Virus record (IMG/VR): IMGVR_UViG_3300045988_149624 | Length of the DNA stretch: 64,000 nt | Source of the DNA: a virus | Strand: one strand, 5' to 3' | Shown: piece after piece, positions 11,887 through 30,146 of the stretch | How the letters are laid out: the number at the start of each line of letters is the position of its first letter | Numbering within the stretch: position 1 is the stretch's first letter | Position numbers and translations under genes: made by a program | Notes under the pieces: model-generated | What the model was told of the DNA's origin: nothing | The model's input: the letters and a program-made list of their open reading frames with translations, nothing else | Database searches by the model: none

Positions 11887-12378
11887 ATGGCAATATTTGT
11901 AGGCGTTGGAAGAACAGATGAGTGTTCTAACAGTAAAAAAGAAGAAAAAGAAAAAAAATGGAAACTTTTATCGGAAATTAAATTAACAGCGAATAATCCA
12001 AAAATACTTATAAAACAAGATGCAGAAGGAAATGGATTTAGCTGTGAAAGAATAATAATTATTGGTAAAATTGTTTCTAACACAACAAGTAAACCTATGT
12101 GTAAAATAAATAATACTATGGAATTTTCAGGAGTAAATTCGACTTATGTGAATGGGACTAGATATATTTATGAGACATATGAAGACAAAGGTTTTTTTAT
12201 AGAAAGAGACACCAAATATCTTACTCAAGACATACTTGAAAGTTCAGTCTTATTTGATAATGGATTCTTTAGGGTAGTTAAAGGTCAAGCTAATGGTATA
12301 AAATCTATTGAATTATATGGAGATTCACCTTCTTTTGTATTTAAAGCAGGAACAGAGTTGGAAATTTATGGATTCTAA
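11887..12378 (+). CDS. hypothetical structural-module protein
   Basis: ORF in the late gene array. ATG 11887 is preferred over 11878 because AAGGAG then lies 9 nt upstream, whereas 11878 gives 0 nt spacing. Confidence 0.5.
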   Translation: MAIFVGVGRTDECSNSKKEEKEKKWKLLSEIKLTANNPKILIKQDAEGNGFSCERIIIIGKIVSNTTSKPMCKINNTMEFSGVNSTYVNGTRYIYETYEDKGFFIERDTKYLTQDILESSVLFDNGFFRVVKGQANGIKSIELYGDSPSFVFKAGTELEIYGF

Positions 12379-12694
12379 TACATATACAATATCTTTGGAA
12401 TTAGTATTTTCATGTATAGCCATGATAATAGGAGTTGGGTCATTTTTAGCTTCTAGAAGTAAAGAAAGTGACAAAATTGGAAGAGAACGAGCGACTGTTG
12501 AAGTTAAATTAGATTATATAGCCCAATCATTAGATGATTTAAAAGCTCAAATAAATGAATCAAGAGAAGAAGATGAAAGAAATAAAAACAAAATATCCGA
12601 AATGGAAAAGATAATGCTTAAACATTCAATGAGATTAAATACAATAGAAAATGAATTAAATATTGACTATAAAGAATTTAAAGAAGATGAATAA
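12368..12694 (+). CDS. 108-aa single-pass membrane / coiled-coil protein
   Basis: Internal ATG 12368 (MDSNTYTISLELVFSCIAMIIGVGSFLAS...) overlaps the previous gene by 11 nt. It has one TM segment followed by a charged heptad region, and a strong terminator follows it. Confidence 0.5.
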   Translation: MDSNTYTISLELVFSCIAMIIGVGSFLASRSKESDKIGRERATVEVKLDYIAQSLDDLKAQINESREEDERNKNKISEMEKIMLKHSMRLNTIENELNIDYKEFKEDE

Positions 12695-12698
12695 TATG

Positions 12699-12728
12699 AC
12701 GAGGGGTTTCCCCTCGTTATTTTTTTTA
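12699..12728 (+). terminator. rho-independent terminator
   Basis: ACGAGGGG-TTT-CCCCTCGT is a perfect 8-bp GC-rich stem (12699-12717), followed by a T-run. Confidence 0.8.
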
Positions 12729-12745
12729 TAAGGAGGTGATTTCGT

Positions 12746-13168
12746 ATGGCAATATTTTATGACTATACGATAACCGTAGATGGAGATAAAGCTAAATTAG
12801 ATAAAAATATATATTTATACAAAAATAATAAAAATATAACTTATTATTTTAAGATACAAAATGCTCCCTTTAAATTTATTAATGCAGTAGATATGGTAGA
12901 AAGCTTAAATGCTTCTACGGCAGATATAAAAATATTAAAGCCTAACGGAGTAAAGAAAAGAATAAAAAATATTCCTATTGAAAATGGGAAAGTAAAATTA
13001 GAAATAGATGATAGTTTTATGGATGAGATATCTGAAATAGGCAAATATACTTTTCAAATAGATTTATATGATAACGCTACAAATAAAGGTAGGGTAACAA
13101 TACCTCCTGTTATAGAACAATTTTGTGTACTTGCACCTATCTTTGAAGATAATGAAGCGACAGAATAG
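12746..13168 (+). CDS. 140-aa structural protein, paralogue of the N-terminus of the next gene
   Basis: RBS TAAGGAGGTGA is present. MAIFYDYTITVDGDKAKLDKNIYLYKNNKNITYYFKIQNAPFKF aligns with MAIFYNYTITVNGNKASMDKNIYLYRKNKNVDYYFEIKNACFKF of ORF 13179. Both also share FQIDLYD...ITIPP...F-VL-P-F-ED. Confidence 0.65.
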   Translation: MAIFYDYTITVDGDKAKLDKNIYLYKNNKNITYYFKIQNAPFKFINAVDMVESLNASTADIKILKPNGVKKRIKNIPIENGKVKLEIDDSFMDEISEIGKYTFQIDLYDNATNKGRVTIPPVIEQFCVLAPIFEDNEATE

Positions 13169-13178
13169 GTGATATTGT

Positions 13179-14345
13179 ATGGCTATTTTTTATAATTATA
13201 CAATAACAGTTAATGGTAATAAAGCTAGTATGGATAAAAACATTTATTTATACAGAAAAAATAAAAATGTAGATTATTATTTTGAAATTAAAAATGCTTG
13301 TTTTAAATTTGAAGATGAAATCAATTATATAATTAGTTATAACGCTAAATATGCTAGATTCAGAGTTATAAAACCCGATGGAACAAAATTTTTTACAGAA
13401 AAAAGAGAAGTAGAAAACGGATATGCAAAATTTTCTGTCACAGAAGACTTAATAGATGAAAGAGCAGAGGTTGGTACATACGTTTTTCAAATAGACTTAT
13501 ATGACGGAAGCAATGGATTTATTACTATACCTCCTATCTATAATCAATTTCATGTTTTAGAACCATTATTTGACGAAGACGAATCAGGAGCAGGACAAGT
13601 AGACATATCTAGCGTAGATGTAGCGTACATAGGAGATACACTAGAGAAGGTTACAATTTTTGATGAAAACGGTGTATATGTTAAAACGTTTTGGAAACCA
13701 AAAGAGATAATTTCGTCTGTAAGAATGAATAAAATAGAAGAAGGAATATATTCTTTAAGTCAAAAAGTCGCAGATTTAACATTCAAACCGATATCTATTA
13801 CTTCCTTTAAGAGTAATTTATCTAAAACAGTATATGAAAAAAATATAGAAACTATAAATAGTTGCAAGTTTACATGGAGTACAAGTATGATTCCAAAATC
13901 AATTAGTCTAACCGATTGTACTGTTGAGACTAGCGATACAAGTTATACATACAATAAGACAATTTCAGACACAAAGACCTTTACACTATCGGTGACTGAT
14001 AGTAAAAATAATGTAAGAAGTTCTAGTATTACTTTTACATTTGTTTATCCTTTTTATTATGGAACATTTACCAACTCACTAACAGAAGCAGATATAAAAA
14101 ATGAAGTTAAATTAGTTGAATTAAAAAACAACAAAACATTAACTTTAACATATAATGACATGAAAGTTTTTTATGCTTATCCCAAGGCTTATGGAGAATT
14201 AAAAAGTATAAAAGATGGAAATGGGTTTGAATATTTAAACGACTTTAATAAAGAAGAGATGAATATTAATAGTATTCCTTATTATGTTTATAAAATAAAA
14301 AATAAAGCAAGTGTATCTCAAATAAAATATACATTTAGCTTTTAG
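13179..14345 (+). CDS. 388-aa baseplate/receptor-binding-type protein (N-terminal domain paralogous to ORF 12746)
   Basis: Carries the shared ~140-aa N-domain (see ORF 12746) plus a unique ~250-aa C-terminal extension. A BppU-like role is inferred only from position and architecture. Confidence 0.6.
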   Translation: MAIFYNYTITVNGNKASMDKNIYLYRKNKNVDYYFEIKNACFKFEDEINYIISYNAKYARFRVIKPDGTKFFTEKREVENGYAKFSVTEDLIDERAEVGTYVFQIDLYDGSNGFITIPPIYNQFHVLEPLFDEDESGAGQVDISSVDVAYIGDTLEKVTIFDENGVYVKTFWKPKEIISSVRMNKIEEGIYSLSQKVADLTFKPISITSFKSNLSKTVYEKNIETINSCKFTWSTSMIPKSISLTDCTVETSDTSYTYNKTISDTKTFTLSVTDSKNNVRSSSITFTFVYPFYYGTFTNSLTEADIKNEVKLVELKNNKTLTLTYNDMKVFYAYPKAYGELKSIKDGNGFEYLNDFNKEEMNINSIPYYVYKIKNKASVSQIKYTFSF

Positions 14346-14946: not shown

Positions 14947-16860
14947 ATGACTAAATTTAATGAACTTAATAAAACTATTGTCATTAATGACACAGACTAT
15001 TTATTGTTGGGAACAAATTTAGATAGTGGATTTGAAAATAAAATAGCTAGTATAGAAACTTTAAAAAAAGCATTATTAGGAGATACTTCTAATCAATATT
15101 TAAACTTATTATCTTCTGACGGGAAGAAAGAATTTAGATTAACATTAGATGGAAATGGTAAAATGCATATTTTTCCTATAGAAGCTTATACTAGCACTCC
15201 TTATACAGAAGGACAGAATTTAGAATCCCCTTTAAAAATAGTTCCAAGTAATAAAATAGATTCGGAAAACAATAGTGGCTTAGTTATTCAACAAATATAC
15301 GGCGGTGGTTCATTAACCACAAAAGAAACAGCAGTAAGTCATAATTTTGTTGAGTTATATAATTGTAATACCGTTGATATAAATTTAAATGGTTTATATC
15401 TTTGGTATAAACCTAATGGTGGAAGTTGGAGTTCTTTAGCTTTAAGAGGAATAGTCCCTGCCGGACATTCTTTTTTAATTAGGGGTAATGCACTTTATAA
15501 TATAAATAGTGATATAGTTAGATGTAAAATAACAGAGTATGACCAAGAATGGAATATATCTTTTTCGGAAAATGGATTCACAATATATTTATGTGTAGGA
15601 GAAAAAGAACCCGAGGCAACGCCAGTTAAATATATAAAAAATGAATTAGGAGCAATAACATCTACTGACCAAAGATGGGTTGATATGCTTGGTGGTGGCG
15701 GAGCAGAAGATTCTCACACTATCGCAGTATATGAAGGCGGATATTATAATATGGGAATGAGTAGATATTGTTCTTTAAGAAGAATGAATTTTAATAATGG
15801 TAAAAATAATAGAGACGATGCAAGTATTATAGATTATCAAACTTGTGAAGTTGAAAAATTTAGACCAAGAAGTTTAGCAGACGGATATTGGAACTCAAGT
15901 GCAGAAACAATACAATTTAATAAATATAGTCCTTCAATGGTTAATATGTGTTATGGGGAAAATGGTGATACTTCAAGAACTTTTACTTTTGAAACTCCAG
16001 TAACAGATTATGATGGAATTATTAAATACAGAAAACAAGGAGAAACAAAGTGGATAAAGAAAAAAACAACTAAAGATATTGTAAATCTTTATGACCAAGT
16101 AGTTAATATTCATAGAGTAATTATACATGATTTAACTTATGGAACTTACGAATATCAACTAGGCGTAGAAGGTATGCTTACAGATATAGAAACATTTGAA
16201 ATAAAACAATATAACCAATCTAATAGCTTAAAGATGCTATGGACTACTGATGAACAGGGATTTACAGAATATGAATACAATGCAGTAAGAACAGCCCGTG
16301 ATGCTATTGAGCATTATGAATATTCAAATAGCACTCCTAATTTTGATTGTCATTTAAACACAGGCGATATTTCACAAAATGCAAACAGACCACAGGAATG
16401 GCGATACTATTATAAATATCATGAAAATAATCTTAAAACTATGCCACATATACTTAATTGCGGAAATAACGATTTAATAGATAAAAAATTTGGTACAGCT
16501 TTTGAATATTACGGCACTTTTGAAAATCAACCATTACTAAATACCTATGAACCTCATACAGAAGGAGAAAGAGCAGTTCCAATGGTTTCTAGTTATAGCT
16601 TTGATGTTGGTTTTGTACATTTTGTAGTGATTAATTCTAATACAGAATATATGTACCCAGAAGTAAATACAGATGAATTTTTAAGAAAACAAATAGAATT
16701 CTTAGATGATGATTTAACTAAGGTTGAAGCAAGAGCGACTAAACCTAGATGGGTAGTTGTTACTTGTCATTTAAGTCCTTTTACAATAGTTAGAACTAAG
16801 AGATTACAACAATGGATTCCTTATATAGAAAAACATAAAGTGGATTTTGTATTATGCGGG
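14947..16860 (+). CDS. exon 1 of a tail-module protein with lamin-tail-domain-like and metallophosphoesterase-like domains
   Basis: RBS AGAGGTGA is present. The LTD-like segment is VIQQIYGGGS...VSHNFVELYNCNTVDINLNGLYLWY...IVPAGHSFLIRG (about nt 15260-15520). MPE-like motifs are TGDISQN, CGNND and VTCHLSP. The ORF stops at TAA 16861 right after ...KVDFVLCG, in the middle of the GHxH motif. Confidence 0.75.
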
Positions 16861-18365
16861 TAATGTTGCCCTAGTTATCGAGTAATCGGTTTCAAAAAAT
16901 TACAAATTTAATTGCAGGTAATTCCTAAAGCCTTACACCACAATAACCCTGAAAAGAGGTTATGAAGGTACGAAAGTAGAAAAAACGTAAGGATAAGTAT
17001 ATGGTTAAACCCTAAGTACTTGGATATAATGATAATAAGTAAGTTATATCAAAATGGATGTTCATGCAGGTAAGATTCTAAATTTATTTATTTAAGCTCG
17101 AATAATTTTACGAGGTGAGTAAAATAGGAAAAAAATTAAATTATAATAACGTAAAAGAATATATAAATTCTCATGGTTATATATTATTAGATAATGAATA
17201 TATCAATATACATAAAAAAATGAAAATCAAATGCCCAGAAGGACATATTTTTGAAATGTCTTTTAATAATTTTAAGAAAGGACAAAGATGTTCGATTTGT
17301 TCCTTAAATAAACAATATAAATATACATATTCTCAAATTAAAAATATTTGTAAAAATAACAACTTGATACTTTTAAATGAAAAGAAAAATTTAAATATGC
17401 GAGATATAATTAAATTTAAAAACGAAAAAGGAAATATCGAACAAGTAACACTATACACTTTTGAAAGAAGATACATCAATACAAATAAATCAGCATCAAA
17501 ATCAAAATATTCTAATAAAAAACATTCTCAAGAATATATACAATCTTTGGTAAAAAAAAGAGGGTATAAGTTGTTAGAGCCATATAAAAATAAAAAAACT
17601 AAATTAAAATTGCAATGCCCTAATGGTCACTATCACGAGATTCGTTTAGATAGTTTTATAAAAGGGAGTGGATGCAAACAATGTATGATTGAGAATATGA
17701 CTAACGATGTAAAAGATGTGATTACAAATCTTCAAAAAAAAGGATTTCATTTATTATCTAAATATAAAAATAATCAAGAAAAAATTGTTTTACAATGTGA
17801 AAAAGGACATATATTTAACGCCACCTACGATAATGTAGTTAATAACAATAGTGGATGCCCTGTTTGTAATGAAAGCAAAGGAGAAAAGAATATAAGAAAA
17901 ATATTAAAAAAATATAATATTAAATATATTCCTCAATATAAATTTGATAATTGTAAATTCTATAAATGTTTGCCTTTTGATTTTTATTTGCCTGATTATA
18001 ATTGTTGTATTGAATATGACGGAATACAACATTATAAAATAATAAAGCATTTTGGAGGCTATGAAACATTTATAGATAGAAAAATAAGAGACACAGTTAA
18101 AACCAAATTCTGTGTAGACAACAATATTAAAATAATAAGAATTTCTTATTTGGAATTTAATGATATTGAAAAAATATTAAAAAATGAGCTTAAAATAAAA
18201 GAATAAGAATAAACTTCAAAGACTATCTCGCAAGAGAGTACGACAAAGTATGTCGGATAAGGTTTGCCCCTATATAGGGTGAAGAAATAGTCTAATATCC
18301 TAATGAAAGTTAGGGCGAGAGAAATTCTCGATTTATGAAGTAACGTTCATAAAAACAATATAATG
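16861..18365 (+). mobile_element. group I intron (IA-like) carrying an endonuclease ORF; boundaries +/- a few nt
   Basis: Structured non-coding arms of 254 nt and 159 nt flank an internal ORF. Hairpins with GNRA loops include ATCGA-GTAA-TCGGT, TAC-GAAA-GTA and TCTC-GCAA-GAGA. AGACTAT (18220-18226) pairs with ATAGTCT (18287-18293), resembling the P7 of the Tetrahymena intron. P7.1/P7.2-like hairpins are TCTCGCAAGAGA and CGACAAAGTATGTCG. P9-type hairpins are CCTAATGAAAGTTAGG, CGAGAGAAATTCTCG and TATGAAGTAACGTTCATA. The element ends in G at 18365, and removing it fuses ...VLCG to HNHTYSRS. Confidence 0.75.
17115..18206 (+). CDS. intron-encoded putative homing endonuclease: three zinc-ribbon repeats + PD-(D/E)XK (Vsr/DUF559-like) nuclease domain
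   Basis: Starts at GTG; this is the only start upstream of repeat 1, as the frame opens at 17106. The three repeats are GY-LL-x9-12-K-(I/L)-(K/Q)-CP-x-GH-x-(F/H)-x9-12-C-x2-C. The C-terminus is LPFDFYLPDYNCCIEYDGIQH...DRKIRDTVKTKF, typical of PD-(D/E)XK Vsr-like endonucleases. Confidence 0.7.
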   Translation: MSKIGKKLNYNNVKEYINSHGYILLDNEYINIHKKMKIKCPEGHIFEMSFNNFKKGQRCSICSLNKQYKYTYSQIKNICKNNNLILLNEKKNLNMRDIIKFKNEKGNIEQVTLYTFERRYINTNKSASKSKYSNKKHSQEYIQSLVKKRGYKLLEPYKNKKTKLKLQCPNGHYHEIRLDSFIKGSGCKQCMIENMTNDVKDVITNLQKKGFHLLSKYKNNQEKIVLQCEKGHIFNATYDNVVNNNSGCPVCNESKGEKNIRKILKKYNIKYIPQYKFDNCKFYKCLPFDFYLPDYNCCIEYDGIQHYKIIKHFGGYETFIDRKIRDTVKTKFCVDNNIKIIRISYLEFNDIEKILKNELKIKE

Positions 18366-18902
18366 CACAACCATACATACAGTAGAAGTATTCCACTATA
18401 CACAGGATATAAAGGAGCGACATATGATTCTTCTACTAGAAAGTTCACACTTGCACCATATAACAATTATGTAGATGTTGTATCTACTGGTTCTACTCAA
18501 TTAAAAATAGTAGATGAAAGTATAACAAGAACAGCTAATAAGGCTGATGGAACGTATTATATAATGTGTCAAGCGACAGGCTATAAGCAAAAGGGTAAGG
18601 AAAAAGCTATTAATTTACCTAGTGGACAAAATTTATTAAAAACTGAAAATCCAAGCTCTATACATGACAATGGTAATGGTCAACCTTGGTGGTATGCTTA
18701 TACAGGTACTCTGCCAGTACAACCAACATACATTATGGTGGACTTTGGATATGATAAAGTCACATTTAATATGTATTATATTAAAGATGTACTTACTAAA
18801 GATTTAGAAGAAAAAATTACAGTAAATGATTTTGACCCTACTAAGAATGAAAGAGTTTTATTTGATACACTTACTGTTAATTATTCAGACAGAAATAAAT
18901 AA
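18366..18902 (+). CDS. exon 2 of the LTD/metallophosphoesterase-like tail-module protein
   Basis: The frame opens at 18339 and reads HNHTYSRS from 18366. Joined to exon 1 it gives VDFVLCGHNHTYSRS, which matches purple-acid-phosphatase-type GHVHAYERS. The ATG at 18363 has no RBS. Confidence 0.7.
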   Translation, partial: HNHTYSRSIPLYTGYKGATYDSSTRKFTLAPYNNYVDVVSTGSTQLKIVDESITRTANKADGTYYIMCQATGYKQKGKEKAINLPSGQNLLKTENPSSIHDNGNGQPWWYAYTGTLPVQPTYIMVDFGYDKVTFNMYYIKDVLTKDLEEKITVNDFDPTKNERVLFDTLTVNYSDRNK

Positions 18903-18913: not shown

Positions 18914-21900
18914 ATGCCTACAATAAGAAAATATAATAAAGAAACAGAGAAATATAAAAGAATAGCTACCTCCGATGCGTTGGAGGTGGCTATTTTAGAC
19001 GCAGAAGGAAATTTTGAATCTGATAATGTAGAAGGTGCTTTAAGAGAATTAGGAGACGCTAAGGGGCAAATAGAAGTTAATAGAGGCATTATAGACGCTG
19101 TTAATTCTACTCTTACTGACCATATTAAAAATCACCCAAGTGGTGGGGGTGGCGGAGGCACAATGCCTACTATAAGCACCGACTGGAACGAAACTTCTAT
19201 TGACGGAGATAAAGACTTTACAATTCCTATTTATTTTACATCTCCCAATTTAGGAGAAGGTACTTTATATGTCTTAATTAATAATGTAGAAACATCTATA
19301 CAGACAATTTCTCAAGGTAACAATACTATTAAAATACCTGCTTTAGGGAGTGGTAAAAAAAGACTTTCTATTTATGTAAGAGATAGAGGACAACTTATGT
19401 CTAATCAATTAACATGGGATATTGTTTGTGGTGGTATCAAACTAACTGTAACGATGAACACAGATATAGATTATACTCTTAAAGATAGAATATTATTAAC
19501 TTACAATATAGACTGTGATTTACAAACTGATATAAATACGATTATTACTATTGACGGAACAGAATATACAGTTAAATCCAATAAAGGGTATAACTCTTAT
19601 GAAATTAAGGGTTTAACAGTAGGGGTTCATAAAGTTGAAATATATGCAACCGCTGATGTTTATTCTACTCCTTCTCAAGTATTTAATGTTATAGTTGTTG
19701 CTACAGAACAATTGTTTATAACCTCAACATTTGACACAACTAAACAATATGAAAAGGGTCAGCCTATGAATATTAATTACAGAGTCTCTATAGCAAACAC
19801 AGATTATTATACTATTAATATGTATGTTGATGATTTTGAAAAACCTATTAAGACATTATCTCAACAACCCGGAAACTACTATTGGACTTTTACTCCTGAA
19901 TTTGAGTTAGGAAAACATACTTTAAGAATAGAAGCTTATAACTCTGATAAGAGTAAAACTGCCACATTAGATTTGCCTTTTGAATTAGTTGCTTCTAGTT
20001 ATCAAGCTATGGAATATGTTAGTACAGGTCTAATAGCTTCTTTCAATGCGAAAAATAGAACTAATTCAGATGTTGACAGAGGGTATTGGGTAGACGATAT
20101 AAATGGATATATAGGAAGATTGTATAATTCAAATTATGGTACTAACGGTTGGATAGACGGAGAATTAGTATTAAATGGTAACACATATGTAGAGATTGAT
20201 ATGACTCCTTTTAGTGATAATGTAACTAGAGGATTCACTTTAGACATGGTATTTAGTGTGGAGGATATAGGTAATCCTTTAGCTAGAGTTATAGACTGCA
20301 CAAGTCTTTCTGCTCCTTATCCGGGGCTATATGTTAATCCTTATAAGGCTAATTTGGCTACTGTATCTCATAAGACAGAATTAGATATAGGGCAAGGAGA
20401 AGATATACAGATTACTTTTATGATTGATAGGGTTTCTAAATTTGGTAAGGTATTCATCAACGGAGTATGTTGTGACCCATTCCAATTATCAGATTCATCT
20501 TCTGGTAGCCAAATAATATATGAGCAAATTAAACACGAAGAAAAAATATATTTAAATAGTGAAAAAGGGACAAGTAATTTTGGCTCTTGCAAAATAAAAA
20601 GAATAATGATGTATGAAAGAGAATTATCAGACGAAGAGGTTCTTCAAAATAGAATAGCAGATATGAAAATAGAAGAGCAAGAAGAAGAATATAACAAAAA
20701 CTATAATGATGCTTATATGCCTTGTATGTACATTTATGGAGATATAAGCAATATGACTTTAACAAATAAAAAAGAAGTTAGAATAAAATATGTTTCACCT
20801 AATGCTGATTTATATGGGTCATCTTTTGAATATCCTAGATGTAAAATGTATTGGCAAGGGACTTCTTCTATTCAATATGCTAATAAGAATTTTAATATAG
20901 AACTAGGAGATAGTGACGGAAATCAAGTATTTTATACTCCTTTTAAGAATGGTATTTTAGAATATTTATTCTGTTTAAAATGTAATCAAATGGAATCTTC
21001 TAATGTTATGAATACAGGGTCTGCTATGTTTGTTAATGACAACTTATATGTAGAAAAGAATCCTGCCCAATTAAAGAATGATAAAGTTAGACAGGCTATT
21101 GAAGGTTTCCCTATACTTTTATATATAAATGATGAATTTGTCGGACTGTATGATTTCAACTTAGATAGATATAGTTATCGTTCTTATGGATATAACTTAT
21201 TTGATAAGTGTTTAGCTTATGAAGTATCAGCCAACTCTGACACAACAGCAGGTGCTTTTAATTCTTGGACTTCTTCTAGTGGTAAGACAGAACAAAATTA
21301 TTATGCTTCTGATTTTGAATGTTTATATCCTCCAAGTAGACAAAATGGTAATGACAACTTTGCAGAATTAAAAACATTAGTTGATTTCGTAAGTGGTGCA
21401 GATGAAGATTTATTTAAAGAACAGTTTGATACTTATTTTGATAGACAGTCTGTATTTAGATATTATTTATTTGTACAAGTATTTGGGGGAATAGATTCTC
21501 TGGGAAAAAATATGAAAATAGTTACATTTGATGGTATAAAATGGTATTTGCAAGTATATGACTTAGATAGTTTAATGGGGTTAGACAATACTGGTGCATT
21601 AACGTTTGATGTTGACATAGAAGTTGAAAGTGGAGTATTTAATACATCTAATTCTAAACTATGGAGTAAAATTAGACTTTATTTTGCTAATGAATTAAAA
21701 CAAGAATATATTAATATGAGAAATGGTGTATTCACACTTGAAAATATGTATAAATATTTTTACGATAATCAGATGGATAAAATACCTGTAAGATACTATA
21801 ATAAATCTACTGAATATAAATATTTAAGATTTGGTGCAAAATATTTATATGCCTGTCATGGTAATAGATATTTCCAAATAAAAAGATGGTTAAAAGAAAG

Positions 21901-24900
21901 ATTGTTATATTGTGATACTTTATTCGGATATGAACCTTCTACTTCTAATTTTGTTACTGTTCGTTGTAATAAACAAGGTAAGGTTTCGATGAACATATCG
22001 ACTTATAGTCCTATGTATTTATCTGTAAAATGGAGAGACGAAGCAGATGGCAGCGGAACACAAACATTAAAAATACCTAGAAATAAATCAGTTAAATTTA
22101 GTTATACGATTCCTACTGCTACAGATCAGGAAGTTATTATATATGGGGCAGAATACATCAAGTCTTTAGGAGATTTAAGTACCTGCAATCCAACTCACTT
22201 ACTTTTATCAAATGCTACGAGAATAAATGAGGTAATATGTAGAAACAGTTCAAAATTAGTAAATGCAGAAATAAATGGTTGCAGCTATTTACAAAAAATA
22301 GATTTTAACGGCTGTTCTAATTTAGGTAGTTTAACCAGTTATCAGGTTATGGAATTAGCTACCTGTCAAAACTTGAAATATTTAGATATAAGAGGAACAA
22401 AAATGACAGGGGTAAACTTTGATAATAATGGTGGTAACTTAGAGGAAATATATCTTCCTAAAACAATAACATCATTATACTTGAGAAACCAATATGCTTT
22501 AAAAATTGTAGGTTTGACAAGTGTTAGTTGGTATTCTCCATTTCATACAGAAGCTTTAAGTGGAGCAAGTGATATAACATCATTTACATTAATTAATTGT
22601 CCTTTAGTAGAAAGACTTACTACCCGTTCAGATATAAGTATGAGTGGATGGAATCAAACATTTTATGATTTTAATGGGAATGCAAGGAATGTGGATACAT
22701 TAGGAGATTATGAAGACGCTACTAAGTTTAGAAAGATGGCTCTTTTTGGACTAGGATTATGTAATGCAACTTCTATTCATATAGAAAACAGTATGTTATC
22801 TACTAGATATATGTCTTTTAGATTTAATTATAGACTAGAAGAATTAACATTAAAATACCTACCTAATCTTCAAGAGTTGACTATTGGAGAAACTCAAACA
22901 GGACATAGATGGAATGTAACAGATGATATGTGTGGTTCTTTTGATTTTAATAATATTAATATCACAGAATGTCCTAATATAAAAACATTTAGAATACATC
23001 AATATGATGAGAGACAACCTAAATGGTTTAATAGTGGAACTAATGTAATAGATTTAACTAAGTTTGAAAATCTTGAAACATTTACTTGTAATATTACTAC
23101 TCAAGATTTAAACACGATAATTCTTCCTTCTACATTAAAGATGATATGGATTAAGCCGATGTGTGGATTCTCTAGTACTAATTATCCTAATAATTGTTTA
23201 AAATCAAAATGCACTCTAAAGAATATATATTTTAAGGAAGACCATCCAAACGGATATGAAGGAATAGACTTTGGAAATAGGGAATTAACAGAATTATGTT
23301 TATCTGGGGTAATACAGTCAACAGGAACAATAACTGGGGTAAATACTAAAAATACTTATGTTAGTCCTGTATTTAATAATATGAATGAAAAAGAAAGAGG
23401 TTCTGAATCTTATCCTGAAGTAAAAGTCCAAGGGAAAATAGACTTATCTAATTATGATTGGACGGAAGCATACTGGTGGTTCACAAATGTTAATTTTACT
23501 TCTGATAATTTAGAATTTATTATGCCTAATGACTGGGATTATCTAATAGATACTCGCTTGAAAAGAGTAAGAGGGGTATTCTTTGATTGTACAAACCCAA
23601 ATTTTACTTGGGAATTTGCAGGTAGATTTTTTAAATTATTACAAGACAGAGATGATTTAGGAAAAACATATAAATATGCAACACTTCAAGAACAATCTTC
23701 TTATGAAGAACAGGCAGTTACAATAGAAAATAATTATGATATAGCAGATTATAACTATGGAGACACACCTTTTGTTGGTTCTAATCTTAAATACATTAGA
23801 GAATGTAATTTTAAAGGAAATGCTATAGCATATGGTACTTTCAGAAATTCAAATCTTGTAAAAGTTGGAACAATTACTTGTAGTGGCTCAAATGTATGGT
23901 GGAGTTCCGAAAGTTTATTCCAAAACAGTAAAAACTTAGAAGAAGTAGAGTGTATCAATATGACTGGAGCTAATAGTACTACAAACTGGTTTGCTAGTTG
24001 TCCTAAATTAAAAAGAGTTGGAACAGTAAATGTAAATGCTAAGAATATAAATCAAATGTATGCTTATTGTCCTCAGCTAACAGAATTAGCATTACCTACT
24101 TTAACTAATTTAGAGAGAATGAGTGGGTTTGTTAGAGGGTGCACTTCTTTAACTGAATTACATCTTAATGAAATAACAGAAAACACTCCTTTAGAATATA
24201 TGGACTGGGCATTTAGAGATTGCCCTAATTTAACTTCTGTAACTATTGGAGGAACTACTCTACCCCCAACATTGGTAACAATGGAGGGAGCGTATTATGG
24301 AGATAAAAAGCTTACAAAAGTAATTCCTTTACCTAATGATTTTAGTAATAAATGTAGTATGCGTTCTTGTTGTTATGGTTGTTCTTCATTAACAGATGAT
24401 AATATATATAAAACTCTTCCATATAATGTAAGTAATATGGATTATATTTATTATGCTTGTCATGGATTGACAAATCCGTCTATAGTAGTCAATTCTGACA
24501 GAACAAGTTCTCAATCTTGTTTTGAGGGGTGTGCAAACATAAAATCTGTTAGAGCAGAATTTAATGGTACATATTCTTATGGATTTAATAATTTCTGTAA
24601 TAACTGTGGAGAACTCACAGATGCTTATATTAAATTCCCTTATTCTCTATATTTTAATGATGATGCACAGACTTGCTCTGAAAATGGGAATATATTTGCT
24701 TATTGTAAAAAGCTTATAAACGTAGAGTTGAATATGACTAGATTAGAAAGTAAATCAGATTTTAGAGCAATGTTTAGACAGGATAAATATATAGAATCTA
24801 TAAAAGGATTTGATTTAAGCAATCTTCATAGAGATGATAGAAGACCAAATGATAACGCTTGGTATTTTACTTATGATACATCTTTTGAATTTATGAAGGA

Positions 24901-25120
24901 TTGGGTATTTGCGACAGACGAAAATGGTAATACTAAAAAATTAACAAATTCATATAAGATGTATAATTTAGAATTAACTCCTGCTGCTACTATAGAATCT
25001 CTTATGAATGGGTTAGGAACAGTACAAGCAGAAACATTAACATTAGGTCAAGCAACCTTAAATAGGCTATCGGAAGAACAAAAAGCTAATGCAGTAGCAA
25101 ATGGTTGGACTTTAGCGTAG
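18914..25120 (+). CDS. 2068-aa host-interaction protein: LamG-like + CotH-like + two leucine-rich-repeat regions
   Basis: RBS AAGAGGTGA is present, and PSGGGGGGT forms an N-terminal linker. A LamG-like block (LVLNGNTYVEIDM...GFTLDMVFSV...GKVFINGV...IMMYERELSDEEV) spans about nt 20100-20640. CotH-like motifs (KNFNIEL, FPILLYINDEFVGLYDFNLDR, FRYYLFVQVFGGIDSLGKNMKIVTFDGIKWYLQVYDLDSLMG) span about nt 20700-21630. LRR and BspA-type repeats (CxNLxxLxL, CPxLxxV, CTSLTELHL) span about nt 22030-24600. Confidence 0.8.
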   Translation: MPTIRKYNKETEKYKRIATSDALEVAILDAEGNFESDNVEGALRELGDAKGQIEVNRGIIDAVNSTLTDHIKNHPSGGGGGGTMPTISTDWNETSIDGDKDFTIPIYFTSPNLGEGTLYVLINNVETSIQTISQGNNTIKIPALGSGKKRLSIYVRDRGQLMSNQLTWDIVCGGIKLTVTMNTDIDYTLKDRILLTYNIDCDLQTDINTIITIDGTEYTVKSNKGYNSYEIKGLTVGVHKVEIYATADVYSTPSQVFNVIVVATEQLFITSTFDTTKQYEKGQPMNINYRVSIANTDYYTINMYVDDFEKPIKTLSQQPGNYYWTFTPEFELGKHTLRIEAYNSDKSKTATLDLPFELVASSYQAMEYVSTGLIASFNAKNRTNSDVDRGYWVDDINGYIGRLYNSNYGTNGWIDGELVLNGNTYVEIDMTPFSDNVTRGFTLDMVFSVEDIGNPLARVIDCTSLSAPYPGLYVNPYKANLATVSHKTELDIGQGEDIQITFMIDRVSKFGKVFINGVCCDPFQLSDSSSGSQIIYEQIKHEEKIYLNSEKGTSNFGSCKIKRIMMYERELSDEEVLQNRIADMKIEEQEEEYNKNYNDAYMPCMYIYGDISNMTLTNKKEVRIKYVSPNADLYGSSFEYPRCKMYWQGTSSIQYANKNFNIELGDSDGNQVFYTPFKNGILEYLFCLKCNQMESSNVMNTGSAMFVNDNLYVEKNPAQLKNDKVRQAIEGFPILLYINDEFVGLYDFNLDRYSYRSYGYNLFDKCLAYEVSANSDTTAGAFNSWTSSSGKTEQNYYASDFECLYPPSRQNGNDNFAELKTLVDFVSGADEDLFKEQFDTYFDRQSVFRYYLFVQVFGGIDSLGKNMKIVTFDGIKWYLQVYDLDSLMGLDNTGALTFDVDIEVESGVFNTSNSKLWSKIRLYFANELKQEYINMRNGVFTLENMYKYFYDNQMDKIPVRYYNKSTEYKYLRFGAKYLYACHGNRYFQIKRWLKERLLYCDTLFGYEPSTSNFVTVRCNKQGKVSMNISTYSPMYLSVKWRDEADGSGTQTLKIPRNKSVKFSYTIPTATDQEVIIYGAEYIKSLGDLSTCNPTHLLLSNATRINEVICRNSSKLVNAEINGCSYLQKIDFNGCSNLGSLTSYQVMELATCQNLKYLDIRGTKMTGVNFDNNGGNLEEIYLPKTITSLYLRNQYALKIVGLTSVSWYSPFHTEALSGASDITSFTLINCPLVERLTTRSDISMSGWNQTFYDFNGNARNVDTLGDYEDATKFRKMALFGLGLCNATSIHIENSMLSTRYMSFRFNYRLEELTLKYLPNLQELTIGETQTGHRWNVTDDMCGSFDFNNINITECPNIKTFRIHQYDERQPKWFNSGTNVIDLTKFENLETFTCNITTQDLNTIILPSTLKMIWIKPMCGFSSTNYPNNCLKSKCTLKNIYFKEDHPNGYEGIDFGNRELTELCLSGVIQSTGTITGVNTKNTYVSPVFNNMNEKERGSESYPEVKVQGKIDLSNYDWTEAYWWFTNVNFTSDNLEFIMPNDWDYLIDTRLKRVRGVFFDCTNPNFTWEFAGRFFKLLQDRDDLGKTYKYATLQEQSSYEEQAVTIENNYDIADYNYGDTPFVGSNLKYIRECNFKGNAIAYGTFRNSNLVKVGTITCSGSNVWWSSESLFQNSKNLEEVECINMTGANSTTNWFASCPKLKRVGTVNVNAKNINQMYAYCPQLTELALPTLTNLERMSGFVRGCTSLTELHLNEITENTPLEYMDWAFRDCPNLTSVTIGGTTLPPTLVTMEGAYYGDKKLTKVIPLPNDFSNKCSMRSCCYGCSSLTDDNIYKTLPYNVSNMDYIYYACHGLTNPSIVVNSDRTSSQSCFEGCANIKSVRAEFNGTYSYGFNNFCNNCGELTDAYIKFPYSLYFNDDAQTCSENGNIFAYCKKLINVELNMTRLESKSDFRAMFRQDKYIESIKGFDLSNLHRDDRRPNDNAWYFTYDTSFEFMKDWVFATDENGNTKKLTNSYKMYNLELTPAATIESLMNGLGTVQAETLTLGQATLNRLSEEQKANAVANGWTLA

Positions 25121-25710: not shown

Positions 25711-26508
25711 ATGAAAGAGTTAATTGATTATTTTAATGAAAAATATACTAAAAAGAAAGAGTATATTTGTAAAGATTTAAACCCTATTAAATTATTAAAT
25801 AGCGATGAATACGATAATTTTAGGGGTGAAGCTGGTTTAATAATCCTACAAAAACTTCAATATTATCCATTATTTAAAGTGCCGAAGATAAAAAATAATA
25901 GACCAGCATCTATTGGTTATATTTTAAAAACGGATAATGAAGAATATAAAGGGAGCATGAAACAAGTTGTAAGAAACGGGCATAAACTAAATGCATATAG
26001 CAATCCTTATATTAGAATTGCAATAAACGGAGACGAGGTTGCTTTAGATAAAAATAATATATCTATAAACGTAAATAACTGTTCTTTAACATTATATATA
26101 GATTCTCCTGAGCTACCTAAATTAGAATATCCTAAAAATAAAATGGATATGTATAGAGCGTTAAATTTTATAGAGGCAGTATGCTATTCTATTTATGACA
26201 TTAATTTATTTGGGCTTTTTAATGAGGCAATGAATGATATCTTCTCCCCTAATAATATAGATGAAATTGATTTATTTTTAGAAAATTCTCTATTTTGTGT
26301 TGGTTTTAACATTAGAAACAATGCTTATTTTGTAAATCCTGATAAAGATAATTACTATACAATATTAGATGCAATCAAAAAAGGAAAAGCAATATATAAA
26401 GATTTAGAGACACCCCTTGTTAATTGGAAGATAAATAAAGAAGAAAAAGTAATATATTTAGGAGAGCTAATGGCTACCGAAAAAGGTTTAGGACTACCAC
26501 CAAACTAG
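25711..26508 (+). CDS. 265-aa protein, divergent member of the shared-N-terminus family
   Basis: It starts MKELIDYFNEKYTKK, like the family leader (M-N/K-E/K-L-I-x-Y/F-F-N-E-x-Y). The YP-x6-YR-x3-I element is displaced to about aa 140 (EYPKNKMDMYRALNFI). Confidence 0.6.
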   Translation: MKELIDYFNEKYTKKKEYICKDLNPIKLLNSDEYDNFRGEAGLIILQKLQYYPLFKVPKIKNNRPASIGYILKTDNEEYKGSMKQVVRNGHKLNAYSNPYIRIAINGDEVALDKNNISINVNNCSLTLYIDSPELPKLEYPKNKMDMYRALNFIEAVCYSIYDINLFGLFNEAMNDIFSPNNIDEIDLFLENSLFCVGFNIRNNAYFVNPDKDNYYTILDAIKKGKAIYKDLETPLVNWKINKEEKVIYLGELMATEKGLGLPPN

Positions 26509-26521
26509 AAAGGAGTTTAAA

Positions 26522-26869
26522 ATGAACGAATTAATTAAATTATATAACAATAAATATTCTAAAATAGAATATCCAAAAACTAAATTAGATTTTTACTATG
26601 TTTATTTATTTTTACAAAATAAAATAAATGAATATGATGATGGTGAATTAAGAAAATTATTTGAAAAAATAGAAATTCCAAAACCAACAACTCTTAAAGA
26701 ATTGGATATATATAGAGAGTGTGTTGACTTTATTAATGGTATTAGAATTTCTAAAACAGGAAACAAAAGTACTCATTCTCTTAGTGATACTTCCTATAGA
26801 TTGGGGTTTCATGAAGTTTATGAAGAAAATGGATATTTATATTATTATCTTGAAGGGGGAATGGAGTAA
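26522..26869 (+). CDS. 115-aa member of the shared-N-terminus family (short form)
   Basis: MNELIKLYNNKYSKIEYPKTKLDFYYVYLFLQ...LRKLFEKIEIPKPTTLKELDIYRECV aligns over about 70 aa with the N-termini of ORFs 28166, 30824 and 35945. Confidence 0.7.
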   Translation: MNELIKLYNNKYSKIEYPKTKLDFYYVYLFLQNKINEYDDGELRKLFEKIEIPKPTTLKELDIYRECVDFINGIRISKTGNKSTHSLSDTSYRLGFHEVYEENGYLYYYLEGGME

Positions 26870-27285
26870 TGAAAAAAATAATAGATAAATATAATGAAAA
26901 GAATCTTTTACCATTTCCACTGCCATATCCAAAAACAGATTTACAAATATTAAAAACATATAAATTTTTATCTATGATTCAAGATGATGAAATACAAAAA
27001 ATGTTAAAAGATATTAAATTGCCTAAAATAGATTCTTGGAAAGATTATTTTTCTTTAAATGAAGATGGGAACGAATATTATACTATAAGTGTGCCAAAAG
27101 AAACAAATGAGTGGGAAAATGAAATAGACGAGATAGAAGAAGCTATAAGAAAAGGTAAGATTATTCTAGTAGAAAACGATGAGGGTATAATATGTACTGC
27201 TGAAAGTGTGGAAATAAAATTGGAGACCAAAAAGATACAGATTACAACTAAAGATTCTGATTATGGGAATATGGGACCCGTATAA
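26869..27285 (+). CDS. 138-aa member of the shared-N-terminus family (short form)
   Basis: MKKIIDKYNEKNLLPFPLPYPKTDLQILKTYKFL...IQKMLKDIKLPKIDSWKDY matches the family. Its start overlaps the previous stop (TAATG). Confidence 0.7.
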   Translation: MKKIIDKYNEKNLLPFPLPYPKTDLQILKTYKFLSMIQDDEIQKMLKDIKLPKIDSWKDYFSLNEDGNEYYTISVPKETNEWENEIDEIEEAIRKGKIILVENDEGIICTAESVEIKLETKKIQITTKDSDYGNMGPV

Positions 27286-27323
27286 AGAACTAATTAAATT
27301 AATTAAACACTTATAAATAATTT

Positions 27324-27352
27324 AGAGTAGGGGTTGCCCTACTCTTTTTTTA
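27324..27352 (+). terminator. rho-independent terminator (cassette copy 1)
   Basis: AGAGTAGGG-GTTG-CCCTACTCT is followed by T7. The same stem sequence recurs at 30170. Confidence 0.8.
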
Positions 27353-27371
27353 ATATAAAGGAGATGGTTTT

Positions 27372-28157
27372 ATGGTATCAAAACCAAAAATGATAGAAAG
27401 TTTTATTACAAAAAATAAATATAGTAGACCCGGAACAAAACGTTCAAGAACTACTAAAATAGCATGGCATTATACTGGTGCGCATGATGTATCTGCTAAA
27501 GCAACCATGAATTACTTTAAAAACTTAGCAACAACACATACAACTTATGCAAGTTCTCACTTTGTATGTGGACTTGATGGAGAAATATATTATATAGTTC
27601 CTATGAGTGAAATAGCATATACAACTAACAGTGCAAACTATTATTCTATCGGTATAGAATGTGCAACTACTGGAACTGATGACCATTATTCAGATAAAGA
27701 ATACGTGTCTATGGTTAAATTAGGAGCTTGGTTGGCTCAATATTACGGATTAGACCCTAGAAAAGACTTTATAAGACATTATGATGTAACTAGAAAGGTA
27801 TGCCCAAGATACTTTGTTAATCATAAAGATAAATGGAATCAGTTTAAATTAGATTGCTATAATCTTAAAGAAGGTAAAATAAAAGTATCTGATATTGTGA
27901 ATTGTACTAATGGAAAAAAACATACTTCTAAAGTCCCTAGCACTACAACTAAAAAACAATATTTAAGAGTGCTTCAAGATGTTAATGTACATAGCACTCC
28001 TGACTTTAAGTCTAGTTCTGTTTGTGGTAAAGCAGAAAAAGGAGAAGCGCTTACTATTGTTAAAAAGATAGAGAGACCCGGAACAGATATGTATTTAGTG
28101 AAGGCAGGTTATTATATAACTGCTAGTAGTAAATATGTAGAAGTATTTGAGAGATAG
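27372..28157 (+). CDS. endolysin: N-acetylmuramoyl-L-alanine amidase (Amidase_2/PGRP type) + SH3-like wall-binding domain
   Basis: Amidase_2 signatures are IAWHYTGA, SSHFVCGLDGEIYYIVP, SIGIECA and IRHYDVTRKVCPRYF. The C-terminus YLRVLQDVNVHSTPDFKSSSVCGKAEKGEALTIV...YITASSKYVE is SH3b-like. Confidence 0.8.
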   Translation: MVSKPKMIESFITKNKYSRPGTKRSRTTKIAWHYTGAHDVSAKATMNYFKNLATTHTTYASSHFVCGLDGEIYYIVPMSEIAYTTNSANYYSIGIECATTGTDDHYSDKEYVSMVKLGAWLAQYYGLDPRKDFIRHYDVTRKVCPRYFVNHKDKWNQFKLDCYNLKEGKIKVSDIVNCTNGKKHTSKVPSTTTKKQYLRVLQDVNVHSTPDFKSSSVCGKAEKGEALTIVKKIERPGTDMYLVKAGYYITASSKYVEVFER

Positions 28158-29737: not shown

Positions 29738-30146
29738 GCTAAATTTAATGATGTATAACCCTAAAAGAGTTCCTAAAATGAGTGCCAAACTTGAAGCAGA
29801 TGGAAATAAAATATATTTCTATGGTATATTTAATGACTTTAAAAATAAAGATAAATATTATTTTAAAGAAGTTAAGCATGGAATAATTTATATTAATTCT
29901 ACAAGAATCACTGATAAAGGAAGCTTAACTGACGAGACTGAAGGTAGGACAAGAGTAAATTTTGGAACATATAAAGAAGATGGAAGTGTTAAATATAGTA
30001 TGAAACCTTATAATAAATCGTTGAATTATTTGGCAGTTGCTTTTTGTTCTTATGTAGATGAAGATGGTAAAACAAAATATGCCTATTCGGATGTGGTAGA
30101 AGGTAATGCAACAGATGGATTCGTTCAAAGATATCCTCATAAATAA
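29730..30146 (+). CDS. 138-aa hypothetical protein
   Basis: The ORF overlaps the fibre gene end by 8 nt, with GGAGGA 10 nt upstream. No motif was recognised. A terminator follows. Confidence 0.5.
   Translation: MCRLNLMMYNPKRVPKMSAKLEADGNKIYFYGIFNDFKNKDKYYFKEVKHGIIYINSTRITDKGSLTDETEGRTRVNFGTYKEDGSVKYSMKPYNKSLNYLAVAFCSYVDEDGKTKYAYSDVVEGNATDGFVQRYPHK

What the first reader, a model, noticed from the sequence alone, without database searches (positions are those of the whole stretch)
16861..18365. Group I intron with a nested endonuclease gene splits a tail-module metallophosphoesterase gene inside its GHxH motif
ORF 14947 stops at TAA right after ...HKVDFVLCG, and the next long ORF reads (M)HNHTYSRS. 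Fusing them gives VDFVLCGHNHTYSRS, the last metal-binding motif of calcineurin-like or purple-acid phosphoesterases (compare GHVHAYERS). The ~1.5 kb between them has 254-nt and 159-nt non-coding arms dense with hairpins. These include GNRA-loop hairpins, an AGACTAT...ATAGTCT pairing like P7 of the Tetrahymena intron, P7.1/P7.2-like hairpins as in phage IA introns, three P9-type hairpins and a terminal G. An endonuclease ORF sits in a peripheral loop. Phage group I introns are best known in DNA-metabolism genes, so one in a host-recognition or structural gene would be unusual.
Basis: partly seen in the sequence, partly recalled or inferred. Interest (0 to 1): 0.72.

Follow-up and report, generated by a model that had tools for sequence, protein, structure and literature searches.

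The report
Mobile self-splicing intron in phage phosphatase gene
A 1.5-kb group I intron carrying its own homing-endonuclease gene interrupts a phage phosphoesterase gene exactly inside a catalytic motif; this is a familiar kind of selfish element, with one odd detail: the exon ends in G where such introns normally need U.

Summary
Window 16861-18365 is a 1505-nt insertion between codon GGG (Gly) and CAC (His) of an LTD / purple-acid-phosphatase-N / metallophosphoesterase gene. About 20 uninterrupted homologues read ...LCGHNH... across this point. One of them is a 99%-identical intron-less allele.

The insertion is a group I intron of IA (T4 td / Twort) architecture with a 360-aa endonuclease ORF in the P6 loop. 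The evidence:
- Rfam gives no hit on the window. It does score ORF-less introns in the same gene of relatives at 94.6 and 71.1 bits.
- A profile built from those relatives hits the 5' arm (E 1.5e-14). A covariance model built only from other introns hits the 3' arm (36.6 bits, E 5.5e-6).
- 94 proposed pairs are 99.5% paired. Five show compensatory changes, including P3, which pairs across the ORF.
- The non-coding arms evolve 7-30 times slower than synonymous sites.
- The ORF has zinc-finger repeats and a Vsr-like nuclease fold, and its dN/dS is 0.05-0.09.

Introns in phage structural genes are already known, so novelty is modest.

One point is unexplained. The exon ends in G16860, paired G-C with the guide sequence, and the U.G wobble uses the first intron base. 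All ten copies at this site show this, as do the introns at two other sites of the gene.

The parts
14947..16860 (+). Exon 1 of the phosphoesterase gene (638 codons; LTD, purple-acid-phosphatase N-terminal and Metallophos domains). Ends ...GTA TTA TGC GGG (V L C G).
16861..18365 (+). Group I intron, 1505 nt. Starts UAAUGUUGCCC (in-frame stop UAA) and ends ...AAUAUAAUG (terminal G 18365).
   Evidence: Boundaries from collinear homologues and intron-less alleles. The same insertion occurs in L002, L008/9, L037, L038, L048-50 and L074.
16858..16871 (+). P1 hairpin: G16858-G16859-G16860-U16861 pairs with G16868-C16869-C16870-C16871 (internal guide sequence). The U.G wobble involves the first intron base. 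The last exon base G16860 pairs with C16869.
   Evidence: invariant in 4 sequences; junction table
16877..16890 (+). P2: AUCGA-GUAA-UCGGU. The loop is GCAA in L037, L038 and L074, so it stays GNRA.
16903..16909 (+). P3 5' strand CAAAUUU. Pairs with 18260-18266 across the ORF.
   Evidence: 7 of 7 paired in all 4 sequences; C-G changes to U-A in L002 (compensatory)
16913..17070 (+). P4-P5-P6 domain:
- P4 16913-18 / 17062-68, with a bulged A
- P5 16923-25 / 17056-58
- P5a 16931-36 / 16987-92
- P5b 16943-48 / 16958-63
- P5c 16969-71 / 16976-78 (GAAA loop)
- P5d 16995-99 / 17017-21
- P5e 17023-29 / 17044-50
- 5' strand of P6 at 17069-70
   Evidence: nhmmer profile of site A/E introns hits 16907-17081, E 1.5e-14, the only hit in the window. 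blastn shows 72-86% identity to introns of Staphylococcus, Clostridium and Enterocloster phages. Compensatory changes in P5 and P5b.
17075..18215 (+). P6a (17075-78 / 18207-10) and the P6 3' strand (18214-15). The endonuclease ORF sits in the extended P6 loop.
   Evidence: comparison with the ORF-less L022 site-A intron
17115..18206 (+). Homing-endonuclease ORF. The mechanical start is GTG 17115. By homology the start is AUA 17124, 6 nt after the Shine-Dalgarno sequence GAGGUG 17112-17117. About 360 aa: repeated treble-clef zinc-finger / CapR modules and a C-terminal Vsr-like PD-(D/E)XK nuclease domain.
   Evidence: Pfam DUF4379 1.6e-13 and CapR 4.1e-10. phrog_559, phrog_9084 and phrog_7140. 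1975 homologues. Invariant D289, E300, D302, Q305, H306, K329. AF2 pLDDT 89. Foldseek hit to Vsr, probability 0.98-0.99, TM 0.56. dN/dS 0.05-0.09.
18215..18318 (+). 3' catalytic core:
- J6/7
- P7 (18220-25 / 18288-93)
- P7.1 (18226-29 / 18234-37, GCAA loop)
- P7.2 (18241-45 / 18251-55)
- P3 3' strand (18260-66)
- P8 (18268-71 / 18276-79)
- J8/7
- P9 (18299-304 / 18309-14, GAAA loop)
   Evidence: Custom covariance model R1, built from 14 introns none of which is from this site, scores 36.6 bits, E 5.5e-6; next best hit E 1.4. Compensatory change in P9.
18316..18365 (+). P9.1 (18316-20 / 18326-30), P9.2 (18334-39 / 18346-51), a 14-nt tail and the terminal G 18365.
   Evidence: compensatory change in P9.1. 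P9.2 is re-registered with compensating changes in L002.
18366..18902 (+). Exon 2 (178 codons plus stop). Starts CAC AAC CAT (H N H).
   Evidence: dN/dS 0.04-0.17 among intron-bearing alleles

Best explanation
Window 16861-18365 is a mobile group I intron of the IA type (P7.1/P7.2 between P7 and P3', three P9 hairpins). This is the architecture of the T4 td and Twort orf142 introns. It sits between the Gly and His codons of the last metal-binding motif (GHNH) of a virion-module metallophosphoesterase gene.

The pre-mRNA folds into the ribozyme core. P3 closes across the 1.1-kb ORF, which sits in the P6 loop. The intron is excised, joining G16860 to C18366. This restores one 816-aa protein.

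The intron ORF encodes a site-specific endonuclease with zinc-finger / CapR DNA-binding repeats and a Vsr-like PD-(D/E)XK nuclease domain. The endonuclease presumably cuts intron-less alleles near TGC GGC|CAC AAC during co-infection, so the intron is copied in by repair (homing).

Shown here:
- the exact insertion point
- homology of both arms to validated group I introns
- covariation in the proposed helices
- purifying selection on the arms, the ORF and both exons

Inferred:
- actual splicing
- endonuclease activity and target
- the chemistry at the 5' junction, where the exon's last base is G (G-C with the guide sequence) and not the canonical U of a U.G wobble
For: 1. One gene. 20 homologues are collinear with C-G-H-N-H invariant. 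Intron-less alleles L003-L005 are 95-99% identical in protein and read TGC GGC CAC AAC. The fused protein completes the Metallophos profile.
2. Related group I introns in the same gene. ORF-less insertions at CG|NND (L001) and NTG|D (L022) score 94.6 and 71.1 bits on Rfam Intron_gpI.
3. Both arms of the window's insertion are recognised by models that exclude it. nhmmer gives E 1.5e-14 for 16907-17081. Covariance model R1 gives 36.6 bits, E 5.5e-6, for 18215-18318. The 5' arm is 72-86% identical to phage introns, including one annotated 'Group I catalytic intron'.
4. Structure. 94 pairs in 19 helices are 99.5% paired. Five pairs show compensatory double changes (P3, P5, P5b, P9, P9.1). Slid controls give 33-43% paired and 0-1 such pairs.
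5. Constraint. Arm divergence is 0.016 (window vs L008) and 0.097 (vs L002), against synonymous divergence of 0.49 and 0.73 in exon 2.
6. Endonuclease.
7. Splicing is needed. In L002 the middle exon has a stop just upstream and no in-frame start, yet it is conserved. Exon 2 dN/dS is 0.04-0.17. No Shine-Dalgarno sequence precedes ATG 18363, whereas the endonuclease ORF has GAGGUG.
8. Differences from intron-less L003 cluster in the 300 nt downstream of the junction (19 of 47), as expected from co-conversion.
Against: - Rfam Intron_gpI gives no hit on the window, even at E <= 10 in an 1.8-kb search.
- The 5' exon ends in G, not U. Canonical cleavage after the U.G wobble (U16861) would add one U and shift the frame. 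Experiments on the Anabaena intron report that -1 must be a pyrimidine (PMC12355055).
- The covariation rests on only four sequences, three of them close, and the structure was drawn from these same sequences.
- An in-frame ATG sits exactly at the 3' junction in every copy at this site, so separate translation of exon 2 is not formally excluded here.
- No RNA data are available.
Confidence: 0.85

Rival explanations
1. Genes in pieces. The insertion is a homing-endonuclease cassette with a decayed or non-splicing intron. The phosphoesterase is made as two polypeptides: 638 aa ending at the TAA, and 179 aa starting at ATG 18363. The two associate, as with T4 gp39/gp60 or Aeromonas phage Aeh1 NrdA (the latter from general knowledge).
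For: TAA follows the Gly codon directly, and an in-frame ATG directly precedes the His codon in every copy at this site. The non-U base at -1 would be expected to cripple a canonical group I ribozyme (PMC12355055).
Against: - No ribosome-binding sequence lies upstream of ATG 18363.
- The non-coding arms are 7-30 times more conserved than synonymous sites and show compensatory changes in long-range P3. A mere spacer would not behave this way.
- The homologous intron at NTG|D has the same G|U junction but no in-frame start for its downstream exon, so precise splicing must occur there.
- A stop at the intron start and AUG at the intron end are also features of T4 td (recalled, not tested).
Confidence: 0.08
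2. Canonical cleavage after the wobble U16861 gives mRNA ...UGC GGG U CAC.... The frame is restored by a +1 ribosomal slip of tRNA-Gly from GGG to GGU.
For: P1 places the U.G wobble at U16861 / G16868 in all copies. A GGG-to-GGU slip would read Gly then His.
Against: The same trick cannot work for the site-A introns, where the extra U would fall inside the Asp codon (GGA G-U-AU). There is no slow codon or stimulatory element evident. This explanation is entirely speculative.
Confidence: 0.03
3. Two ordinary adjacent genes with a free-standing endonuclease gene between them. The VDFVLCG + HNHTYSRS fit is coincidental.
For: None beyond the ORF calls.
Against: Collinear single-ORF homologues exist, including 95-99% identical alleles without the insertion. 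The Pfam profile is completed only by fusing the two ORFs.
Confidence: 0.01

Closest known systems
Bacteriophage T4 td intron with I-TevI (subgroup IA2)
   Same: The endonuclease ORF is looped out of P6. P7.1/P7.2 lie between P7 and P3'. P1 is short and G-rich (td GGGU/GCCU; here GGGU/GCCC). The intron begins UAA and ends AUG. Mobility is by homing. The td details are recalled, not tested here.
   Different: - The host gene is a virion-module phosphoesterase, not thymidylate synthase.
- The endonuclease is zinc-finger / CapR + Vsr-like PD-(D/E)XK, not GIY-YIG.
- There is a large P5 extension.
- The exon's last base is G, not U.
Twort-like Staphylococcus phage orf142 (tail tube) introns
   Same: The P4-P6 domain is 80-86% identical over about 57-70 nt to sequences next to the tail tube gene of Sepunavirus and Kayvirus genomes. 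The host gene is structural (PMC11878797).
   Different: The intron read here in phage BE06 (L042) has a canonical U.G junction (CUUUAGU|... GCUGAAG). The stretch between the tail tube gene and the next annotated gene there is only about 0.5 kb, too short for an ORF of this size.
Group I introns of the same gene in related gut phages (sites A, B, D, E, F)
   Same: Same ribozyme family and same endonuclease family (36-41% identity). Most insertion sites lie at conserved metal-ligand motifs.
   Different: The insertion sites differ. Sites B and D have canonical U at -1, site E has C, and sites A, F and this one have G. ORF-less copies reach the Rfam threshold.
Group I introns of crAss-like and Jug gut phages
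   Same: Many genes, including terL, are fragmented by group I introns with PD-(D/E)XK, HNH and other endonucleases. Some are validated by metatranscriptome reads (PMC12880540).
   Different: A different phage lineage. The relatives here look Firmicutes-associated: Shine-Dalgarno use, and intron similarity to Clostridium, Enterocloster and Staphylococcus phages. No RNA evidence is available here.

Membership tests
Group I intron (Rfam RF00028) | Reaches the Rfam gathering score (50 bits) | tested here: not met
   No hit on the window at the gathering score or at E <= 10. Homologous ORF-less introns in the same gene score 94.6 and 71.1 bits. An ORF-bearing one scores 38 bits.
Group I intron (Rfam RF00028) | Conserved core P3-P8 with the P3/P7 pseudoknot, the J8/7 strand and the P7 guanosine-site helix | tested here: met
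   Independent covariance model R1 scores 36.6 bits, E 5.5e-6, on 18215-18318. nhmmer gives E 1.5e-14 on the P4-P6 domain. P3, P7 and P8 are fully paired, and P3 shows a compensatory change.
Group I intron (Rfam RF00028) | Terminal guanosine (omega-G) at the 3' end | tested here: met
   G18365 is present in all copies. Its spacing from P9.2 is consistent across relatives.
Group I intron (Rfam RF00028) | 5' exon ends in U, forming a U.G wobble with the internal guide sequence in P1 | tested here: not met
   The last exon base is G16860, paired with C16869. The U.G pair uses intron base U16861.
Group I intron (Rfam RF00028) | Self-splicing with exogenous guanosine | not testable with these tools
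   No RNA data. Indirect support only: exons are under purifying selection, and the middle exon of L002 lacks a start codon.
Subgroup IA (T4 / Twort type) | Extra helices P7.1/P7.2 between P7 and P3' | tested here: met
   Hairpins at 18226-37 and 18241-55 are fully paired in 4 sequences. No subgroup-specific model was available.
Homing endonuclease, Vsr-like PD-(D/E)XK class | Nuclease fold and conserved acidic / lysine catalytic residues | tested here: met
   Foldseek hits 1vsr and 1cw0 at probability 0.98-0.99 and TM 0.56, but with E about 0.2. D289, E300, D302 and K329 are invariant in 38 sequences. No Pfam nuclease domain and no PDB sequence hit.
Homing endonuclease, Vsr-like PD-(D/E)XK class | Cleaves the intron-less allele at or near the insertion site | not testable with these tools
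   Indirect only. The ORF has dN/dS 0.05-0.09. Differences from the intron-less allele cluster next to the junction.
Calcineurin-like metallophosphoesterase (PF00149), host gene | Full set of metal-binding motifs ending in GHxH | tested here: met
   The fused protein matches 19-191 of 191 profile positions at 35 bits, against a cut-off of 21.5. GD, GNND and GHNH are invariant or nearly so in homologues.

The most novel reading that the evidence does not exclude
This intron and its relatives at two other sites of the same gene form a lineage of natural group I introns. In this lineage the 5' splice site follows a purine (G) in a Watson-Crick G-C pair with the guide sequence, often with the U.G wobble displaced to the first intron base. 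That would relax the near-universal U(-1).G rule for 5' splice-site choice.
Probability: 0.5. Interest if true: 0.7.

Novelty: new member of a known kind. Interest (0 to 1): 0.42.

Why it matters
As an intron plus homing endonuclease, this is one more example of selfish elements targeting the most conserved (catalytic) codons of a phage gene. In practice it shows that two ORF calls, plus an unannotated 'hypothetical' nuclease, should be merged into one 816-aa phosphoesterase. It also shows that Rfam alone misses ORF-bearing introns of this family.

The gene is an unusually rich natural experiment. Relatives carry introns at six or more sites, most at metal-ligand motifs, with up to three per gene.

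The point worth an experiment is the 5' junction. If these ribozymes really cleave after a G-C pair, they would be a natural exception to the U.G rule that underlies models of group I substrate recognition and the design rules for trans-splicing and circular-RNA ribozymes.

Tried and rejected
- Rfam scans of the window found no Intron_gpI hit at the gathering score or at E <= 10 on 16700-18500. The four weak matches to other families there are noise.
- megablast of the whole gene against phage genomes found no match. blastn of the 3' arm found no match.
- phmmer of the endonuclease against PDB sequences found nothing meaningful.
- I searched for a splice pair with U or C at -1 that still encodes C-G-H-N-H. 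None exists in the sequence. The only other in-frame option with a terminal G (G18345) would insert seven residues (GFHKNNIMHNH). It also lies in the P9.2 loop, and the invariant CGHNH of homologues contradicts it.
- Translational bypass of the T4 gene 60 type was rejected: there is no matching landing codon, and the gap is 1.5 kb.
- Sequencing error (an extra G in GGGT) was rejected. The same GGG|TAATG occurs in ten independent contigs.
- A proposed P10 pairing (CAAC with GUUG) is not supported, because L037 and L074 have GCUG.
- A hairpin that would sequester the endonuclease ribosome-binding site (17097-17114) is not conserved in L008 or L002.
- A search of viral contigs for an intron-less allele carrying GGG-CAC, a possible footprint of precise intron loss, found none.
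- Literature searches found no description of this gene's introns, and no natural group I intron with G at -1. This is absence in the library searched, not proof.
Full report
**What is there**

ORF 14947-16863 ends …KHKVDFVLCG followed by TAA. ORF 18363-18902 begins ATG CAC AAC CAT = (M)HNHTYSRS. A 363-codon ORF (17115-18206) lies between them, leaving non-coding arms of 254 and 159 nt. Pfam finds LTD, Pur_ac_phosph_N and Metallophos in the upstream ORF. The Metallophos match stops at profile position 186 of 191 (25.6 bits). Fusing the two ORFs extends it to 191 of 191 and raises the score to 35.0 bits.

**One gene, interrupted**

- A protein search with the fused C-terminal half returned 57 homologues, many covering 97-100% of the query in a single polypeptide.
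- In an alignment of 20 sequences, C216, G217, H218, N219 and H220 are invariant and contiguous.
- A scan of viral contigs found very close alleles. L003, L004 and L005 (95-99% amino-acid identity over all 816 residues) have no insertion and read TTA TGC GGC CAC AAC or TGT GGT CAT AAC.
- The 1505 nt at 16861-18365 are therefore an insertion between GGG (Gly) and CAC (His).
- The same insertion, at the same point and with the same ends, occurs in L002, L008/L009, L037, L038, L048, L049, L050 and L074.

**The insertion is a group I intron**

Rfam gives no hit on the window, either at the gathering score or at E <= 10 on 16700-18500. That negative does not decide the question, for four reasons.

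1. The same gene in relatives carries shorter, ORF-less insertions that are clear Rfam group I introns. L001 (361 nt, at CG|NND) scores 94.6 bits, E 1e-24. L022 (365 nt, at NTG|D) scores 71.1 bits, E 1.4e-17. An ORF-bearing intron in L022 reaches only 38 bits.
2. An nhmmer profile built from five introns at other sites of the gene hits the window once only, at 16907-17081, with E 1.5e-14. This P4-P6 region is also 72-86% identical to sequences in Staphylococcus (Twort-like), Enterocloster and Clostridium phages. One of these is annotated 'Group I catalytic intron'.
3. A covariance model of the 3' catalytic domain (J6/7-P7-P7.1-P3'-P8-J8/7-P7'-P9) was built from 14 introns, none from this site. 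It hits 18215-18318 end to end at 36.6 bits, E 5.5e-6. The next best hit in 64 kb has E 1.4.
4. A full secondary-structure model (P1 to P9.2, with the P3/P7 pseudoknot) was laid on four ORF-deleted copies from this site.
   - It has 94 pairs in 19 helices, 99.5% of cells paired.
   - Five pairs show changes on both sides: P3, P5, P5b, P9 and P9.1.
   - Sliding the partners by 1-3 columns drops pairing to 33-43% and compensatory pairs to 0-1.
   - P3 pairs 16903-16909 with 18260-18266, across the ORF. It switches C-G to U-A in L002.
   - Caveat: there are only four sequences, and the structure was drawn from them.

The architecture is that of subgroup IA (T4 td, Twort): two hairpins between P7 and P3', three P9 hairpins, and the ORF in the P6 loop. 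The subgroup assignment rests on general knowledge of those introns.

**Functional constraint**

| Comparison | Arm divergence | Exon 2 dS | ORF dS |
|---|---|---|---|
| window vs L008 | 0.016 | 0.49 | 0.21 |
| window vs L002 | 0.097 | 0.73 | 0.76 |

- The non-coding arms therefore evolve 7-30 times slower than silent sites, as expected for a working RNA.
- Exon 2 has dN/dS 0.04-0.17 among intron-bearing alleles, so it is translated.
- In L002 the same gene has a second intron at NTG|D. The exon between the two introns has a stop just upstream and no in-frame start, yet it keeps the essential Asp and the GNND motif. Precise RNA splicing, not separate translation, must express it.
- In the window no Shine-Dalgarno sequence precedes ATG 18363. 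The intron ORF is preceded by GAGGUG.

**The intron ORF**

- Pfam finds three DUF4379 treble-clef zinc-finger repeats and CapR modules.
- PHROGs places it in phrog_559 (4.8e-73), phrog_9084 'homing endonuclease' and phrog_7140 'intron encoded nuclease'.
- It has 1975 homologues at E < 1e-5. One source names one of them 'very-short-patch-repair endonuclease'.
- In 38 aligned sequences the zinc-ligand cysteines and D289, E300, D302, Q305, H306 and K329 are invariant.
- An AlphaFold model (pLDDT 89) matches E. coli Vsr with probability 0.98-0.99 and TM 0.56 on the target. The Foldseek E-value is only about 0.2, because the query has several domains.
- dN/dS is 0.05-0.09.
- By homology with the L029 copy (GAGGUG, 6 nt, AUG), the start codon is AUA 17124, a weak initiator. 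This is inferred.
- The endonucleases of the introns at the other sites belong to the same family (36-41% identity).
- Differences between the window and intron-less L003 are concentrated just downstream of the junction (19 of 47 within 300 nt). This is consistent with co-conversion during homing. Homing itself is inferred.

**The unexplained point: the 5' junction**

- The only boundary that yields C-G-H-N-H and leaves a terminal G is 16861..18365, so the exon ends in G16860.
- The P1 hairpin is GGGU (16858-61) with GCCC (16868-71). G16860 pairs with C16869, and the U.G wobble uses the first intron base.
- Cleavage after that U would give GGG U CAC and a stop seven codons on.
- This is not a sequencing error. 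Ten contigs share the junction.
- It is not peculiar to this site.
  - All site-A introns read GGAG|UAA…AGCUCC, including the Rfam-validated L022 copy.
  - L029 reads GGAG|AAAUUUCUCC, with no U.G at all.
  - L099, at another site, reads CGCAG|AAAU…CUGCC.
  - L031 has C(-1)-G.
  - Sites B and D are canonical: GGU|U…AGCCAC and GAU|UAA…GUCC.
- In the A, B and E introns examined, the terminal G lies 11 nt after the P9.2 stem, which fixes the 3' boundaries independently.
- Work on the Anabaena intron reports that -1 must be a pyrimidine, and that swapping T-G to G-T abolishes activity (PMC12355055).

I therefore report an apparent natural G(-1) splice site as an inference that needs RNA evidence. 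The alternatives are listed as rivals.

**Context and novelty**

- Neighbouring ORFs carry SLT + NlpC/P60 (7570-11445) and CotH (18914-25120) domains. Homologues in isolates are Bacillus phage G gp352 and the 'phosphatase' of crAss-like phages. A virion or tail-module location is plausible but not shown.
- Introns in phage structural genes are known:
  - Twort orf142 is a tail tube gene (PMC11878797).
  - Cluster J mycobacteriophages splice introns in capsid and tail genes (PMC3706429).
  - Jug phages average 18.5 introns per genome (PMC12880540).
- The finding is a well-supported new member of a known kind. The non-canonical junction, and the many independent insertions at catalytic motifs of one gene, are the parts worth following.

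Noticed in passing
Loci L001, L002, L006, L007, L020, L022, L025, L029-L031, L045-L047, L059, L063, L088, L096, L098, L099, L101-L103: The same phosphoesterase gene carries group I introns at six or more different sites in related phages, most at metal-ligand motifs: WTTD|QQ, NTG|D, CG|NND, CG|HNH, plus QQAWT|VEE and NANRS|FEW. There are up to three introns per gene. All the endonucleases examined belong to one family.
   Followed up: partly
window 16855-16860 + 18366-18371, compared with window 16459-16473: The target sequences of the CG|NND and CG|HNH introns resemble each other (TGYGGN|NAYAAC). This could have allowed ectopic movement between two motifs of one gene.
   Followed up: no
window 17097-17127: By homology the endonuclease ORF starts at AUA 17124, 6 nt after GAGGUG. 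The GTG 17115 given by the ORF finder overlaps the Shine-Dalgarno sequence. A hairpin over the Shine-Dalgarno sequence (CUCG/CGAG) is not conserved in L008 or L002.
   Followed up: partly
window 18366-18665 vs L003: Nucleotide differences from the 99%-identical intron-less allele cluster in the 300 nt just downstream of the insertion site (19 of 47 in the whole gene), as a co-conversion tract would.
   Followed up: partly
L041 (Clostridium phage D-1873) 2448-4248: An annotated group I intron similar to the window's P4-P6 domain is followed by an IS605-type transposase gene. This arrangement resembles an IStron.
   Followed up: no
L020 ~12030 and L022 ~11617: Further group I 3' cores (J8/7 GAAGAAAUAGUCU, the same as in the window's intron) lie several kb downstream, in other genes of these relatives.
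   Followed up: no
L103 879-1293: A 413-nt insertion at KPRWTI|IVVYAH has no terminal G in any in-frame parse. It may be a different element, or my boundaries may be wrong.
   Followed up: no
window 44264-45847, 29737-30824, 38167-39143, 26508-27372, 12378-13179: These are stretches of 0.8-1.6 kb without an ORF of 150 aa or more. The window has no tRNA genes and no Rfam hit at the gathering score. The stretches were not examined further.
   Followed up: no
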